A stretch of 41,067 nt of DNA. Source: a virus (Duplodnaviria > Heunggongvirae > Uroviricota > Caudoviricetes). The stretch lies in IMG/VR virus record IMGVR_UViG_2541047898_000010. One strand, written 5' to 3'. Positions 1 to 41,067 of the stretch are shown in pieces. Below the pieces are notes generated by a model. That model saw only the letters and a program-made list of their open reading frames with translations, did not search any database and had not been told where the DNA came from. Positions within the stretch are counted from its first letter, which is position 1; each line of letters opens with the position of its first letter. The position numbers and the translations under genes are program-made.

Positions 1-1158
1 ATGCTCACCGTTAAGCAGATTGAAGCAGCAAAGCCGAAAGAAAAACCATACCGCCTTCTCGATGGTAATGGCCTGTACCTTTATGTTCCTGTATCCGGGA
101 AAAAGGTATGGCAGCTTCGCTACAAGATTGACGGTAAGGAGAAAATCATGACCGTCGGAAAATATCCGCTTATGACTTTGCAGGAGGCCAGGGATAAAGC
201 ATGGACTGCGAGGAAAGACATCTCGGTTGGCATCGATCCGGTAAAAGCGAAAAAAGCTTCGTCTAATAACAATTCCTTTGGTGCGATTTACAAGGAATGG
301 TACGAGCACAAGAAGCAAGTCTGGTCTGTAGGGTATGCGACTGAACTTGCCAAAATGTTTGATGACGACATTTTACCTATCATCGGCGGCCTTGAAATTC
401 AGGATATTGAGCCGATGCAACTGCTGGAAGTAATCCGCAGATTTGAAGATCGCGGTGCAATGGAGCGAGCCAACAAAGCCCGCAGAAGATGCGGCGAGGT
501 TTTCCGTTACGCTATTGTCACCGGAAGGGCTAAATATAACCCAGCACCTGACCTTGCTGACGCCATGAAGGGATACCGCAAGAAGAACTTCCCGTTTCTT
601 CCTGCAGACCAGATCCCGGCATTCAACAAAGCACTGGCAACATTTTCAGGAAGTATCGTATCGCTCATTGCGACCAAAGTTTTACGCTACACAGCACTCA
701 GAACAAAAGAGCTTCGTTCCATGCAATGGAAGAACGTCGATTTTGAAAACAGGATTATCACTATCGACGCCAGTGTGATGAAGGGCCGCAAGATACATGT
801 TGTTCCTATGTCAGACCAGGTGGTTGAACTTCTCACTACGTTAAGCTCCATCACCAAACCAGTATCAGAGTTTGTTTTTGCCGGGCGTAACGATAAGAAG
901 AAGCCAATCTGCGAGAACGCGGTATTGCTTGTGATCAAACAAATCGGCTATGAGGGCCTGGAAAGCGGTCACGGATTCAGGCATGAATTCAGCACGATTA
1001 TGAACGAGCACGAATGGCCTGCCGACGCCATTGAAGTGCAACTGGCACATGCCAATGGCGGATCTGTGCGCGGCATTTACAACCATGCTCAGTATCTCGA
1101 TAAGCGCAGAGAAATGATGCAGTGGTGGGCGGACTGGATTGATGAAAAGGTAGAGTGA
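1..1158 (+). CDS. int: Tyrosine integrase (P4 / IntS-like family)
   Basis: 385 aa; C-terminal catalytic pattern R...HxxR...Y (LRTKELRS, GHGFRHEF, VRGIYNHAQY); followed directly by gtrABC as in enterobacterial serotype-converting prophages. Confidence 0.9.
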   Translation: MLTVKQIEAAKPKEKPYRLLDGNGLYLYVPVSGKKVWQLRYKIDGKEKIMTVGKYPLMTLQEARDKAWTARKDISVGIDPVKAKKASSNNNSFGAIYKEWYEHKKQVWSVGYATELAKMFDDDILPIIGGLEIQDIEPMQLLEVIRRFEDRGAMERANKARRRCGEVFRYAIVTGRAKYNPAPDLADAMKGYRKKNFPFLPADQIPAFNKALATFSGSIVSLIATKVLRYTALRTKELRSMQWKNVDFENRIITIDASVMKGRKIHVVPMSDQVVELLTTLSSITKPVSEFVFAGRNDKKKPICENAVLLVIKQIGYEGLESGHGFRHEFSTIMNEHEWPADAIEVQLAHANGGSVRGIYNHAQYLDKRREMMQWWADWIDEKVE

Positions 1159-1309
1159 GCGACCTTAAACTATCGAATAGCACAAAGTCTTGCAATCCAG
1201 TGCAAAGCTTTGTGCGCCTCAGTTTTGTCTCATCAACCACAGCAAGTCATCGATCGATTGAGACTTGGATGATAGACTTCATGCCTTTGATTATTAGCTG
1301 ATAGAAGAA

Positions 1310-25735: not shown

Positions 25736-26183
25736 GTCTTACCCCCAATAAGGGGATTTGCTCTATTTAATTAGGAATAAGGTCGATTACTGATAGAACA
25801 AATCCAGGCTACTGTGTTTAGTAATCAGATTTGTTCGTGACCGATATGCACGGGCAAAACGGCAGGAGGTTGTTAGCGCGACCTCCTGCCACCCGCTTTC
25901 ACGAAGATCATGTGTAGAAGGCAGCAGCGTAACTATCACTGATGAATTCAGGATAGCCAGTGGCTACGGCTCAGTTTGGGTTGTGGCGGCCGGAATCGAA
26001 CCGGCTTCCATCGGTGCGCTGCCGATTGCAGTACGCGCGGCGGTCAGCTACATGACTAGTATTTTCACTGTCGCCTATCTGCTAGCTCGCCATTGAGCTT
26101 CACCACAACGATAAGAGCACTGCGCGGCACCTTTCACCAATTCCGCGAGGTCTGCGGGTTCAATGCTCTTACCTGTTGCACAG

Positions 26184-33046: not shown

Positions 33047-33340
33047 TCAGAATTCCATCTGGATTTGTTCAGAACGCTCGGTTGCCGCCGGGCGTTTTTT
33101 ATTGGTGAGAATCGAAGCAACTTGTCGTGCCAATCGAGCCATGTCGTCGTCGACGACACCCCATTCAAGAACAGCAAGCAGCATTGAGAACTTTGGAATC
33201 CAATCCCTCTTCCACCTGCTGATCTGCGACTTATCAACTCCCACAGCTTCCGCTGTCTTCTCAGTTCCAAGCATTGCGATTTTGTTAAGCAACGCACTCT
33301 CGATTCTTAGAGCCTCGTTGCGTTTGTTTGCACGAACCAT
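33047..33340 (-). CDS. cII: CII transcriptional activator (lambda type)
   Basis: 97 aa from ATG 33338-33340 (MVRANKRNEALRIESALLNKIAMLGTEKTAEAVGVDKSQISRWKRDWIPKF...), near identical to lambda CII. Confidence 0.9.
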   Translation of the reverse strand: MVRANKRNEALRIESALLNKIAMLGTEKTAEAVGVDKSQISRWKRDWIPKFSMLLAVLEWGVVDDDMARLARQVASILTNKKRPAATERSEQIQMEF

Positions 33341-33459: not shown

Positions 33460-34812
<1,353 letters not shown>

Positions 34813-40157: not shown

Positions 40158-40271
40158 TAGTGAACTATTATATCTATTTGTATTAAAAGAGTTTTTATAA
40201 AATAAATCTTCCAAAGCATGTAAAAACACTGTTAATCTTAACGTGTGTGAAACGTGAAGAGAGGTGTTGAA

Positions 40272-40553: not shown

Positions 40554-40573
40554 TAATATGAACAAGTAACTAT

Positions 40574-40599
40574 CCTCGCACTCGCGGGGATTTCTTTTA
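40574..40599 (+). terminator. Intrinsic terminator after moron gene
   Basis: cctcgcactcgcgggg followed by atttctttt. Confidence 0.5.
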
Positions 40600-40641
40600 T
40601 CTGAACTCGCTACGGCGGGTTTTGTTTTATGGAGATGATAA

Positions 40642-40809
40642 ATGCACTTTCGAGTCACAGGTGAATGGAATGGAGAGCCATTCAACAGAGTTATCGAAGC
40701 AGAGAACATCAATGACTGCTATGACCACTGGATGCTATGGGCGCAGATAGCACATGCAGACATAACCAATATTCGAATTGAAGAACTGAAAGAACACCAA
40801 GCCGCCTGA
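40642..40809 (+). CDS. Possible small protein upstream of xis (55 codons)
   Basis: ATG preceded by GGAG: MHFRVTGEWNGEPFNRVIEAENINDCYDHWMLWAQIAHADITNIRIEELKEHQAA. Confidence 0.35.
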   Translation: MHFRVTGEWNGEPFNRVIEAENINDCYDHWMLWAQIAHADITNIRIEELKEHQAA

Positions 40810-40822
40810 TGGCGGTTTTTTA
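40798..40822 (+). terminator. Intrinsic terminator
   Basis: gccgcc-tgat-ggcgg followed by ttttttta. Confidence 0.5.
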
Positions 40823-40866
40823 TTACCTGATTTGCAGGTTCGATTCCCTATTCGGAGATAGCACTC

Positions 40867-41067
40867 ATGCAACACGAACTACAGCCTGATTCACTGGTTG
40901 ATTTGAAATTCATCATGGCCGATACTGGCTTCGGTAAAACCTTCATCTATGACCGGATTAAGTCCGGCGACCTGCCAAAAGCCAAAGTTATCCACGGGCG
41001 AGCAAGATGGTTATATCGTGACCATTGTGAATTCAAAAATAAGCTCTTAAGCCGCGCCAATGGGTAA
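40867..41067 (+). CDS. xis: Excisionase / recombination directionality factor (AlpA/TorI-like)
   Basis: 66 aa MQHELQPDSLVDLKFIMADTGFGKTFIYDRIKSGDLPKAKVIHGRARWLYRDH...; last gene, on same strand as int. Confidence 0.8.
   Translation: MQHELQPDSLVDLKFIMADTGFGKTFIYDRIKSGDLPKAKVIHGRARWLYRDHCEFKNKLLSRANG

What the first reader, a model, noticed from the sequence alone, without database searches (positions are those of the whole stretch)
40832..40847. tRNA T-arm-like 16-mer upstream of xis; no att core identifiable in the window
The sequence TTGCAGGTTCGATTCC (40832-40847) contains the canonical T-loop motif GGTTCGATTCC and resembles, from memory, part of a tRNA-Arg (argW-like) gene, a known target of this integrase family. 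However the following bases do not continue as a tRNA 3' end, and the window starts exactly at int and ends exactly at xis, so attL/attR or attP lie outside or are not recognisable. This could be an arm-type or secondary recognition element, a remnant of an att site, or coincidence.
Basis: partly seen in the sequence, partly recalled or inferred. Interest (0 to 1): 0.4.

Follow-up and report, generated by a model that had tools for sequence, protein, structure and literature searches.

The report
argW T-arm relic upstream of torI
The 16 bases are a real, phage-borne copy of part of the host tRNA-Arg (argW) gene sitting in front of the excisionase gene of a well-studied prophage integration module, but they are not the site where the prophage recombines, which lies just beyond the end of the window.

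Summary
TTGCAGGTTCGATTCC (40832-40847) is an exact copy of E. coli argW nt 46-61 (5' T-stem, T-loop and two bases of the 3' stem). It is unique in the window and far beyond chance.

The window is a P22-like prophage carrying the KplE1/CPS-53-HK620-Sf6 argW recombination module, clipped from the intS ATG to the torI (xis) stop. The published crossover core, CTGCAGGGGACACCAT (argW 61-75 plus T), starts 74 nt past the window end. A 135-bp attR that begins inside the 3' end of torI suffices for excision in vitro, so the 16-mer is not the att core.

GenBank already annotates this sequence in two conflicting ways: 'attR core' in CUS-3, and part of a CII-dependent 'pI' promoter in HK620 and Sf6. Neither fits this window, which has TTAC-N5-TTGC although the phage's own pRE-like box is a canonical TTGC-N6-TTGC.

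New here: ten diverged enterobacterial lineages (TorI 70-100% identical) keep GGTTCGATT invariant about 30 nt before the xis ATG, while only 6 of 33 synonymous torI sites are invariant. About ten other lineages lack it. Best reading: an old captured tRNA T-arm at the module's left edge, dispensable for recombination, with its T-loop centre probably retained as a cis-acting site in the torI leader. That function is inferred. The module and the sequence are already known. Interest is low to moderate.

The parts
1..1158 (+). intS integrase gene (P4-like tyrosine recombinase with an arm-binding domain). It forms the left end of the prophage, next to attL/argW, which lies outside the window.
   Evidence: 96-97% nt identity to annotated intS in E. 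coli genomes. Protein relatives carry PF13356/PF22022/PF00589. In K-12, intS starts 161 nt after argW.
40642..40809 (+). 55-aa ORF homologous to the lambda ORF immediately upstream of xis. Its TGA stop lies in the terminator loop.
   Evidence: ORF list. About 96% identity to lambda, HK630, mEp043 and others over window 40567-40829. Lambda locus L113.
40799..40824 (+). Intrinsic terminator: stem-loop at 40799-40818, then a T-run.
   Evidence: Terminator scan. Stable hairpin in the RNA fold. At least three different terminators precede the same conserved leader in other prophages.
40822..40831 (+). Linker ATTACCTGAT. ATTGC in most relatives is homologous to the first half-site of the lambda pI CII box. 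In this window it reads TTAC.
   Evidence: Lambda has ...ggcggttttttCTTGCgtgtaaTTGCggagac...ATG(xis). The variants ATTGCC, ATTACC and CTTGCC occur among 86 copies.
40832..40847 (+). The finding itself: TTGCAGGTTCGATTCC, equal to argW nt 46-61 (variable-loop TT, 5' T-stem GCAGG, T-loop TTCGATT, first CC of the 3' T-stem). It is phage-borne and not the crossover site.
   Evidence: Present in the HK620 and Sf6 genome records. Annotated 'attR core' in CUS-3 and as part of 'pI' in HK620 and Sf6.
40837..40845 (+). GGTTCGATT, the T-loop centre. It is invariant in ten diverged lineages and lies 29-30 nt before the xis ATG (36 nt in Serratia).
   Evidence: Synonymous third positions of torI are invariant in only 6 of 33 codons in the same lineages.
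40850..40858 (+). ATTCG (a TorI-pentamer-like second motif, 12 nt after GTTCG) overlapping the Shine-Dalgarno GGAGA at 40854-40858.
   Evidence: Sequence. The equivalent is GTTCG in L093 and L101 and GTCCG in L100, but it is absent in L094-L096 and L098.
40867..41067 (+). torI (xis), the recombination directionality factor of the module, 66 aa.
   Evidence: 100% identical to annotated TorI.
41044..41067 (+). Start of the experimentally sufficient attR. Primer attR-IHF2 (CTCTTAAGCCGCGCCAATGG) matches 41044-41063. GGGTAA at 41062-41067 is the first of two GGGTAAA arm-type-like repeats. The rest of attR and the core lie beyond the window end.
   Evidence: Primer sequence in PMC3509656. Coordinates checked. 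The repeats are conserved in all lineages.

Best explanation
Shown: the 16-mer is a phage-borne copy of nt 46-61 of the tRNA-Arg(CCU) gene argW. It lies at the left edge of the KplE1/HK620/Sf6-type recombination module, in the leader of torI, in the order [T-arm copy]-torI-P arm-core-P' arm-intS. Integration and excision cross over in the 16-nt core CTGCAGGGGACACCAT, which begins 293 nt downstream of the 16-mer and 74 nt past the window end. The 16-mer is not needed for excision in vitro.

Inferred (origin): the 16-mer descends from an old capture of a tRNA-Arg(CCU) T-arm that predates the divergence of the enterobacterial variants of this module. Relatives keep different extents of tRNA positions 46-64 and carry either the GCAGG or the ACAGG allele of the T-stem. 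It is a second T-loop copy, because in most lineages the attP side next to the core still reads TTCGATGT.

Inferred (function): the T-loop centre GGTTCGATT has been kept unchanged at a fixed distance from the xis start while everything around it diverged. It therefore most likely works as a sequence-specific cis-acting site in the torI leader. My best guess is a binding site for one of the module's own proteins. IntS presumably has to contact the adjacent T-loop DNA next to the core in attB. TorI recognises GTTCG-type pentamers. Either protein could modulate torI expression, in parallel with the documented IntS and TorI repression of the intS promoter. The site is dispensable, since about half of the sampled lineages lack it.
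For: - **Identity.** Exact 16/16 match to argW 46-61.
- **Core elsewhere.** In a locus 100% identical over window 40560-41067, CTGCAGGGGACACCAT follows torI after 73 nt. The same holds in K-12, where the piece is annotated pawZ. The core sequence is published in PMC2951348. The 135-bp attR that works in vitro starts at window 41044 (PMC3509656).
- **Phage-borne.** HK620 and Sf6 complete-genome records read 16-mer, then xis, then attP core, then int.
- **Edge of the module.** At least three unrelated terminators join the same leader, and homology to lambda stops 2 nt before the 16-mer.
- **Ancient element.** It is present in ten lineages with TorI 70-100% identical, with 5' stems GCAGG, ACAGG, CCAGG, ATAGG and GCCGG and with varying 3' extents (CCTG in Serratia and Pantoea BAV, CCCTGT in Edwardsiella and P. 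stewartii). Both T-stem alleles exist in real tRNA-Arg(CCU) genes.
- **Constraint.** GGTTCGATT is invariant in 10 of 10 lineages, against 6 of 33 invariant synonymous sites. The naive P is about 2e-7, or about 1e-5 after allowing for position. No common polymorphism falls in the 16-mer among 86 E. coli-type copies, although the flanks have some.
- **Regulatory precedent.** TorI pentamers are GTTCG, GATCG and GTCCG, and both TorI and IntS repress PintS (PMC2951348). PtorI is described there as uncharacterised.
Against: - About ten lineages lack the element: Klebsiella x2, Cronobacter, Mixta, Rahnella, Dryocola, three Pantoea and Arsenophonus. Tatumella has only a degenerate version. All keep an intact xis and core.
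- The ten lineages used for the conservation test were chosen because they contain the motif, which inflates the statistic.
- Every bona fide TorI site examined has a pyrimidine after GTTCG (E. coli attL, and the P' arms of L115, L121 and L131). The element has A at that position.
- The second pentamer is missing in four lineages.
- There is no direct evidence that IntS or TorI binds here.
- Within E. coli, five singleton variants hit the 16-mer.
- The path by which the capture happened cannot be reconstructed. No genome shows a contiguous 'phage flank-16-mer-core' form.
Confidence: 0.6

Rival explanations
1. Neutral fossil. The 16-mer is a leftover of an old tRNA capture or att rearrangement with no present function. 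It is carried along only because it sits inside a tightly linked, frequently exchanged module.
For: About half of the sampled lineages do without it. It is not needed for in vitro excision (PMC3509656). There is no consensus RNA structure and no promoter by scan. Singleton variants occur in E. coli copies. Stem positions drift freely.
Against: GGTTCGATT is invariant in ten lineages whose synonymous sites are 82% variable, and it lies at a fixed distance from the ATG. The distribution is bimodal: perfect or replaced, with only one partly decayed copy (Tatumella). Neutral decay would give more intermediate copies.
Confidence: 0.27
2. Part of a CII-activated 'pI' promoter, as annotated in HK620 and Sf6. 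CII binds TTGC-N5-TTGC, whose second TTGC is the first 4 nt of the 16-mer. Transcription then starts near the torI ATG, so that int is expressed without xis during lysogenisation.
For: GenBank annotations of HK620 ('promoter: phage integration', 'cII protein' binding) and Sf6 ('pI'). The position corresponds to lambda pI, directly after the same terminator, and the first half-site is homologous. An Arsenophonus TorI homologue is preceded by a lambda-like TTGCGTGTAATTG.
Against: The window reads TTAC-N5-TTGC. About a quarter of the 86 copies have TTAC. The spacing is N5, whereas this phage's own pRE-like box (33318-33331, TTGCGTTTGTTTGC) has N6, as lambda's does. The TTGC is tRNA-derived, not a CII half-site: Hafnia has TTAC-AGG with no box upstream, matching the other tRNA allele. 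Lineages with other upstream contexts keep GGTTCGATT but have no TTGC repeats. A promoter spacer should not be sequence-constrained. No -10 lies at a workable spacing, and intS has its own mapped promoter (PMC2951348).
Confidence: 0.08
3. True or alternative att core, as annotated for CUS-3 ('attL core'/'attR core'). The prophage would recombine between the 16-mer in argW and the 16-mer upstream of torI.
For: The 16-mer is an exact direct repeat of the argW copy at attL. The CUS-3 record is bounded by it. P4-family integrases often cross over in the T-loop (general knowledge).
Against: The published core is CTGCAGGGGACACCAT, and Kapi1 shows a 17-bp duplication of the same sequence (PMC2951348, PMC8787464). 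The in vitro attR excludes the 16-mer (PMC3509656). The HK620 and Sf6 genome records contain torI beyond the 16-mer. Crossover here would break argW and leave xis behind. None of 5,426 complete E. coli genomes has an argW-16-mer-torI junction, and none has a contiguous flank-16-mer-core. Relatives carry 5' stems that do not match their own core allele.
Confidence: 0.03
4. Recombination linker ('boundary sequence'). The short conserved block serves as a homology patch that lets lambdoid phages, or a phage and the resident argW copy, exchange the integration module.
For: It lies exactly at a mosaic joint. Sf6 annotates the region as bsq2. These phages encode anti-RecBCD and recombination functions.
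Against: 9-16 nt is very short for homologous exchange. The joints seen in E. coli lie upstream, in the T-run/ATTGCCTGAT, not in the 16-mer. The idea explains persistence only by lineage-level selection.
Confidence: 0.02

Closest known systems
KplE1 (CPS-53) / HK620 / Sf6 / Kapi1 argW recombination module (intS, torI, attL, attR; Panis, Mejean and Ansaldi)
   Same: The integrase is the same (96-97% nt). TorI is 100% identical. The layout is the same, with attP between xis and int, so int and xis end up at opposite prophage ends. The leader is the same, including the 16-mer, in K-12, HK620 and Sf6.
   Different: Nothing essential. This copy is a complete 41-kb P22-like prophage rather than the 10-kb KplE1 remnant, and it reads TTAC instead of TTGC just upstream of the 16-mer. 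The papers I could read do not discuss the 16-mer.
Lambda pI (CII-dependent int promoter overlapping the start of xis) and its HK620/Sf6 'pI' annotation
   Same: The genomic position is the same: directly after the homologous 55-aa ORF and terminator, and directly before xis. The first TTGC half-site is homologous.
   Different: The lambda box is TTGC-N6-TTGC. Here the second half is replaced by the tRNA T-arm, the spacing is N5, and in this window the first half is TTAC. int is separated from xis by attP and has its own promoter.
CUS-3 'attL core / attR core' annotation (CP000711)
   Same: It is the very same 16 nt, recognised as a direct repeat of argW.
   Different: That annotation treats the 16-mer as the recombination core and leaves torI outside the phage. 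This conflicts with the mapped core, the in vitro attR and the HK620 and Sf6 genome records.
tRNA-gene fragments left at prophage ends (for example pawZ at KplE1 attR, ptwF at CP4-6)
   Same: A short piece of the target tRNA gene is duplicated at the far end of a prophage.
   Different: pawZ is the crossover core (argW 61-75). The 16-mer is the adjoining upstream piece (46-61). It lies inside the phage genome, 293 nt from the core, and takes no part in strand exchange.
TorI operator sites I1-I5 in attL (GTTCG/GATCG/GTCCG pentamers)
   Same: The 16-mer contains GGTTCG, identical to the centre of site I4 (TGGTTCGC). A second pentamer-like motif follows 12 nt later.
   Different: All known sites have a pyrimidine after the pentamer and occur in cooperative arrays at about 10-bp phasing. 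The element has A at that position and at most two motifs. Binding is untested.

Membership tests
KplE1/HK620/Sf6-type argW recombination module | IntS-type integrase at one prophage end | tested here: met
   Window 1-1158 is 96-97% identical to annotated intS. Protein relatives carry Arm-DNA-bind_3 and Phage_integrase domains.
KplE1/HK620/Sf6-type argW recombination module | TorI-type RDF at the other prophage end, in the same orientation, so that attP lies between xis and int in the circular form | tested here: met
   torI at 40867-41067 is 100% identical. The HK620, Sf6 and Cedecea (L131) loci show xis, then core, then int.
KplE1/HK620/Sf6-type argW recombination module | 16-nt core CTGCAGGGGACACCAT (3' end of argW) at both junctions | tested here: inconclusive
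   The core is not inside the window. In the locus identical over 40560-41067, and in K-12, it follows torI after 73 nt. In K-12 it ends argW upstream of intS. The flanks of this particular window could not be read.
att crossover core | Lies within the DNA sufficient for recombination | tested here: not met
   The 135-bp attR used for in vitro excision starts at window 41044, which is 197 nt after the 16-mer (PMC3509656).
att crossover core | The excised phage genome is joined at this sequence, so nothing phage-encoded lies beyond it | tested here: not met
   The HK620 and Sf6 genomes carry torI and the annotated attP core beyond the 16-mer. None of 5,426 genomes has the predicted scar.
IntS arm-type binding site | Conserved TAAA within GGGTAAA-like repeats | tested here: not met
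   The motif is given in PMC2951348. The 16-mer has no TAAA. GGGTAAA repeats lie at the torI stop instead.
Lambda-type CII-activated promoter (pI, pRE, paQ) | TTGC-N6-TTGC straddling the -35 region | tested here: not met
   The window has TTAC-N5-TTGC at 40823-40835. A canonical box is present elsewhere in the same phage, at 33318-33331. Lambda pI is shown.
TorI binding site | GTTCG/GATCG/GTCCG pentamer followed by a pyrimidine, in phased arrays | tested here: inconclusive
   The pentamer is present at 40838-40842, but it is followed by A. All 14 sites read in E. coli, L115, L121 and L131 have C or T there. Binding itself is not testable with these tools.
tRNA gene or pseudogene | Cloverleaf, or at least an acceptor plus T-arm, recognisable by tRNA models | tested here: not met
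   ARAGORN finds none. Rfam gives no tRNA hit at E<=10. Only 16 nt match argW.

The most novel reading that the evidence does not exclude
The T-loop of the target tRNA gene has been exapted as a regulatory operator. The conserved GGTTCGATT in the torI leader would be an attB-like half-site (or TorI site), bound by the module's own integrase or RDF to gate excisionase expression. That would add an Int-to-Xis (or Xis auto-) feedback loop to the 'KplE1 paradigm'. It would also imply that the DNA specificity of these recombination proteins and the tRNA T-loop co-evolved.
Probability: 0.2. Interest if true: 0.5.

Novelty: already known. Interest (0 to 1): 0.25.

Why it matters
The main value is for annotation. 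The same 16 nt are labelled 'attR core' in one GenBank phage record and 'pI promoter/CII site' in two others, and prophage-boundary tools that look for tRNA direct repeats will be misled by them. Trimming at this repeat cuts off the excisionase gene and the real attR.

Two smaller points of biology follow. First, the control of torI expression is the stated open point of the KplE1 excision model: its promoter is 'non-characterized' in PMC2951348. The invariant T-loop block 30 nt before the torI start is a concrete, cheap-to-test candidate element. Second, the element is a datable fossil of tRNA capture. It occurs in two tRNA-Arg(CCU) T-stem alleles across hosts and could help trace how this integration module moved between enterobacterial genera.

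Tried and rejected
- **Split-tRNA idea** (16-mer plus core as one 31-nt argW 3' segment interrupted by torI). Weakened. In most non-E. coli lineages the attP side next to the core still carries its own T-loop remnant, TTCGATGT. In Edwardsiella, P. stewartii, Hafnia and Cedecea the upstream element has the ACAGG allele while the core has the TGC (GCAGG) allele. The element is therefore a second copy.
- **The leading TTGC comes from the lambda CII box, joined by microhomology.** Rejected. Hafnia has TTAC-AGG... with no CII-like context, which equals the other tRNA allele at positions 46-61.
- **RNA structure in the torI leader.** RNAalifold on eight lineages gave -3 kcal/mol with no covariation. 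The single-sequence fold is dominated by the terminator.
- **Sigma-70 promoter.** None by scan. Manual inspection found no -10 at a usable spacing.
- **Searches for natural recombinants.** The argW-16-mer-torI junction and the contiguous flank-16-mer-core form (two searches returned only two-piece joins across torI) were found in none of 5,426 genomes.
- **Rfam.** Only a sub-threshold STnc130 hit on the opposite strand, driven by the terminator.
- **IntS homologue search**, run to reach attL and argW of the distant lineages. It listed only relatives at >=82% identity and did not help. tRNA alleles were obtained instead from a viral contigs pattern scan.
- **Papers not held.** The CUS-3 papers (PMC1951898, PMC555961) were not held. 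The JBC 2007 and Virology 2010 KplE1 papers and the HK620 and Sf6 genome papers were not looked up. The basis of the CUS-3, HK620 and Sf6 annotations could therefore not be read.
- **Literature string search.** No held paper contains the 16-mer string.

Full report
**1. Observation**

The sequence TTGCAGGTTCGATTCC is at 40832-40847 on the + strand. It is the only exact copy in the window, and 1.9e-5 copies are expected by chance on both strands. ARAGORN finds no tRNA gene in the window, and Rfam gives no tRNA hit around the site.

The 16-mer lies between an intrinsic terminator (stem 40799-18, then a T-run) and the Shine-Dalgarno and ATG of a 66-aa ORF at 40867-41067. The window begins at the ATG of an integrase gene (1-1158) and ends at the stop codon of that ORF.

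**2. What the locus is**

- The last 508 nt are 100% identical to a stretch of E. coli LR-21-1, where the ORF is annotated torI and is followed by dsdC.
- The first 1400 nt are 96-97% identical to annotated intS-yfdG (gtrA).
- TorI is 100% identical in 80 IMG/VR prophages and in HK620 hkaC and Sf6 gene 18.

The window is therefore a P22-like prophage carrying the KplE1 (CPS-53)/HK620/Sf6-type recombination module, which integrates in argW. It has been clipped from the first gene (intS) to the last (torI). In this module attP lies between xis and int, so the two genes end up at opposite ends of the prophage (PMC2951348, PMC8787464).

**3. Where the real att core is**

The published core is the 16-nt CTGCAGGGGACACCAT (PMC2951348). 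Kapi1 shows the same sequence as a 17-bp duplication (PMC8787464).

In the locus identical to the window end, this core begins 74 nt after the torI stop. The same is true in K-12, where the tRNA piece is annotated as the pseudogene pawZ. At the other end, K-12 argW (75 nt) ends in this core and is followed 161 nt later by intS. The core is absent from the window.

The in vitro excision assay of the Ansaldi group uses a 135-bp attR. Its left primer, CTCTTAAGCCGCGCCAATGG, is window 41044-41063 (PMC3509656). The functional attR therefore starts 197 nt downstream of the 16-mer.

The window does contain the first bases of that attR. GGGTAA at 41062-41067 is the first of two GGGTAAA repeats resembling IntS arm-type sites (TAAA motif, PMC2951348). 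It overlaps the torI stop codon and is conserved in all relatives.

**4. Relation of the 16-mer to argW**

The 16-mer equals argW nt 46-61: TT, the 5' T-stem GCAGG, the T-loop TTCGATT, and CC of the 3' stem. The core equals nt 61-75 plus T. In this phage the two pieces adjoin in the tRNA gene, sharing C61, but lie 293 nt apart with torI and the P arm between them.

The 16-mer is part of the phage genome, not host DNA. The HK620 and Sf6 complete-genome records both read terminator, ATTGCCTGAT, 16-mer, xis, attP core, int.

**5. How it has been annotated before**

- CUS-3 (CP000711) starts and ends with these 16 nt, labelled 'attL core' and 'attR core'. This leaves torI outside the phage.
- HK620 labels the region 'promoter: phage integration', with a 'cII protein' binding site TTGCctgatTTGC whose second TTGC is the first 4 nt of the 16-mer.
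- Sf6 copies this as 'pI; possible integrase expression promoter', at the start of boundary sequence bsq2.
- Panis et al. draw PtorI as a 'non-characterized' promoter.
- No held paper contains the 16-mer string.

**6. Test of the att-core reading**

Five observations count against it:
- the mapped core lies elsewhere;
- the sufficient attR excludes the 16-mer;
- the HK620 and Sf6 genomes retain torI beyond it;
- crossover at the 16-mer would destroy argW and strand the excisionase gene;
- none of 5,426 complete E. coli genomes contains the predicted argW-16-mer-torI scar or a contiguous phage-flank-16-mer-core form. The apparent full-length hits are two-piece joins across torI.

**7. Test of the pI/CII reading**

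Lambda has the same 55-aa ORF and terminator, followed by CTTGC-gtgtaa-TTGC-ggagac...ATG(xis). That is the canonical pI CII box with N6 spacing. Homology between the window and lambda ends at the first half-site.

Here the spacing is N5. In this window, in K-12 and in about a quarter of 86 copies, the first half-site reads TTAC. The phage's own pRE-like box at 33318-33331 is a perfect TTGCGTTTGTTTGC.

The TTGC of the 16-mer is tRNA-derived. Hafnia has TTAC-AGGTTCGATTCC with no box upstream, which matches the other natural tRNA-Arg(CCU) allele. The promoter scan finds nothing. An Arsenophonus TorI homologue does carry a lambda-like box, so pI-type control of this xis family exists elsewhere. 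It is not supported for this element.

**8. Comparative anatomy**

Loci encoding TorI relatives came from one genome per species and from seven further contigs.

Ten lineages keep GGTTCGATT(C/T)C, 29-30 nt before the xis ATG (36 nt in Serratia): E. coli type, Enterobacter, a MAG, Serratia fonticola, Citrobacter, Pantoea sp. BAV, Edwardsiella, P. stewartii, Hafnia and Cedecea (TorI 70-100% identical).

Their 5' stem bases differ:
- GCAGG only in the E. coli type;
- ACAGG in four lineages;
- CCAGG in three;
- ATAGG and GCCGG in one each.

Their 3' extents also differ: CCTG in Serratia and Pantoea BAV, and CCCTGT in Edwardsiella and P. stewartii, where a full T-arm hairpin remains. Both GCAGG/CCTGC and ACAGG/CCTGT T-arms occur in real tRNA-Arg(CCU) genes.

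About ten other lineages lack the element or have replaced the leader: two Klebsiella, Cronobacter, Mixta, Rahnella, Dryocola, three Pantoea and Arsenophonus. Tatumella has a degenerate version.

In most non-E. coli lineages the attP side next to the core still reads TTCGATGT-N-TGCAGG, a T-loop remnant. The upstream element is therefore a second T-loop copy rather than simply the missing half of a split tRNA segment.

**9. Is it constrained?**

In the ten lineages, third positions of codons with an invariant amino acid are invariant in 6 of 33 cases (18%), whereas all nine columns of GGTTCGATT are invariant. The naive probability is about 2e-7, or about 1e-5 after allowing for about 45 possible positions.

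The caveat is that the lineages were recognised by the motif itself. Even so, the distribution is bimodal (ten perfect, one decayed, the rest replaced) rather than graded.

Among 86 E. coli-type copies the 16-mer shows only five singleton changes, while the flanks carry common polymorphisms. There is no conserved RNA structure.

**10. Mechanism**

Shown: the element is a tRNA-derived, phage-borne segment at the left edge of the module. It is not the crossover site and is not required for excision in vitro.

Inferred: the T-loop centre is retained as a sequence-specific cis-acting site in the torI leader. There are two candidate readers.
- TorI. Its five attL sites are 8-mers centred on GTTCG, GATCG or GTCCG (PMC2951348; sequences). 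The element contains GGTTCG, and 12 nt later ATTCG (GTTCG or GTCCG in three relatives), overlapping the Shine-Dalgarno. However, every bona fide site read has a pyrimidine after the pentamer, and the element has A.
- The IntS core-binding domain. It presumably has to contact the same T-loop sequence next to the core in attB.

Either protein would parallel the documented IntS and TorI repression of PintS. I give 'some cis-acting function' about 0.6. Within that, binding by IntS or TorI gets about 0.3-0.35 overall. A neutral fossil gets about 0.27, pI about 0.08 and an att core about 0.03.

**11. Novelty and verdict**

The module, the true core and the presence of this sequence are already known and annotated, although inconsistently. 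What this analysis adds is:
- a resolution of the conflicting annotations;
- the finding that the element is an ancient second T-arm copy with an invariant T-loop centre in ten lineages;
- a testable regulatory hypothesis.

This is ordinary as an att-site question and mildly interesting as a lead on torI control.

Noticed in passing
window 41062-41067 and beyond (L001 3503-3530): Two GGGTAAA repeats resembling IntS arm-type sites. The first overlaps the last codons and stop of torI (AAT GGG TAA). This overlap and the C-terminal ...G* are conserved in nearly all TorI homologues, so the gene end appears constrained by the att P arm.
   Followed up: partly
window 25978-26010, minus strand (noncoding gap 25752-26092): A second T-arm-like hairpin, GCCGGTTCGATTCCGGC, followed by CGCCACAACC. 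It gives a sub-threshold match to the 3' end of the tmRNA model (16 bits, E 1e-4 in a 371-nt search). The surrounding 370 nt are conserved noncoding DNA in many lambdoid and P22-like phages, and CUS-3 labels the region 'bsq3; boundary sequence'.
   Followed up: partly
window 33318-33331 (+): TTGCGTTTGTTTGC, a canonical TTGC-N6-TTGC CII box (by my recollection the lambda pRE box itself), in the region of a cII-like ORF on the opposite strand and pointing towards the repressor-like ORF at 33779-34411.
   Followed up: partly
window 1192-1205 (-): TTGCACTGGATTGC, a TTGC-N6-TTGC match in the intS-gtrA spacer, directed antisense to intS. It is within chance expectation (5 found, 3.6 expected).
   Followed up: no
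window 40790-40917 (-): Weak full-length match to the Rfam sRNA STnc130 (24 bits against a gathering score of 55), antisense to the torI start and the 16-mer. It is mostly carried by the bidirectional terminator hairpin.
   Followed up: partly
L001 3560-3590 (outside the window, between torI and the core); all lineages: Conserved inverted repeat, CCCCTGC...(about 18 nt)...GCAGGGG, spanning the P-arm side and the start of the core. These are possibly IntS core-type sites.
   Followed up: no
L093-L098, immediately left of the attR core: Non-E. coli versions of the module keep TTCGATGT-N-TGCAGGGGAC next to the core, a diverged T-loop contiguous with it. The E. coli type has GTAGATGTC there.
   Followed up: partly
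L103 (Arsenophonus nasoniae), about 2460-2500: A TorI homologue is preceded by TTGCGTGAGATTTGCGTGTAATTG. This nearly repeats the lambda pI CII box (TTGCGTGTAATTGC) instead of carrying the T-arm element.
   Followed up: no
CP000711 (CUS-3) 1-16 and 40192-40207; L004, L006: The CUS-3 GenBank record is bounded by the 16-mer, labelled as attL and attR cores. It therefore omits torI and the true attR, which is probably a boundary mis-call.
   Followed up: partly
L100-L102 (Edwardsiella, Pantoea stewartii), about 2470-2490: Here the element is a complete T-arm hairpin, ACAGG-TTCGATT-CC(C)TGT. It matches the T-stem allele of Proteus-type tRNA-Arg(CCU) (L107, L114, L123), although the attR core of the same loci carries the TGC (GCAGG-type) allele.
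   Followed up: partly
window 1310 onward (+): A gtrA-like ORF ([20 protein letters not shown]...) starts 151 nt after intS, so O-antigen glucosylation genes sit next to the integrase as in K-12 yfdGHI.
   Followed up: no
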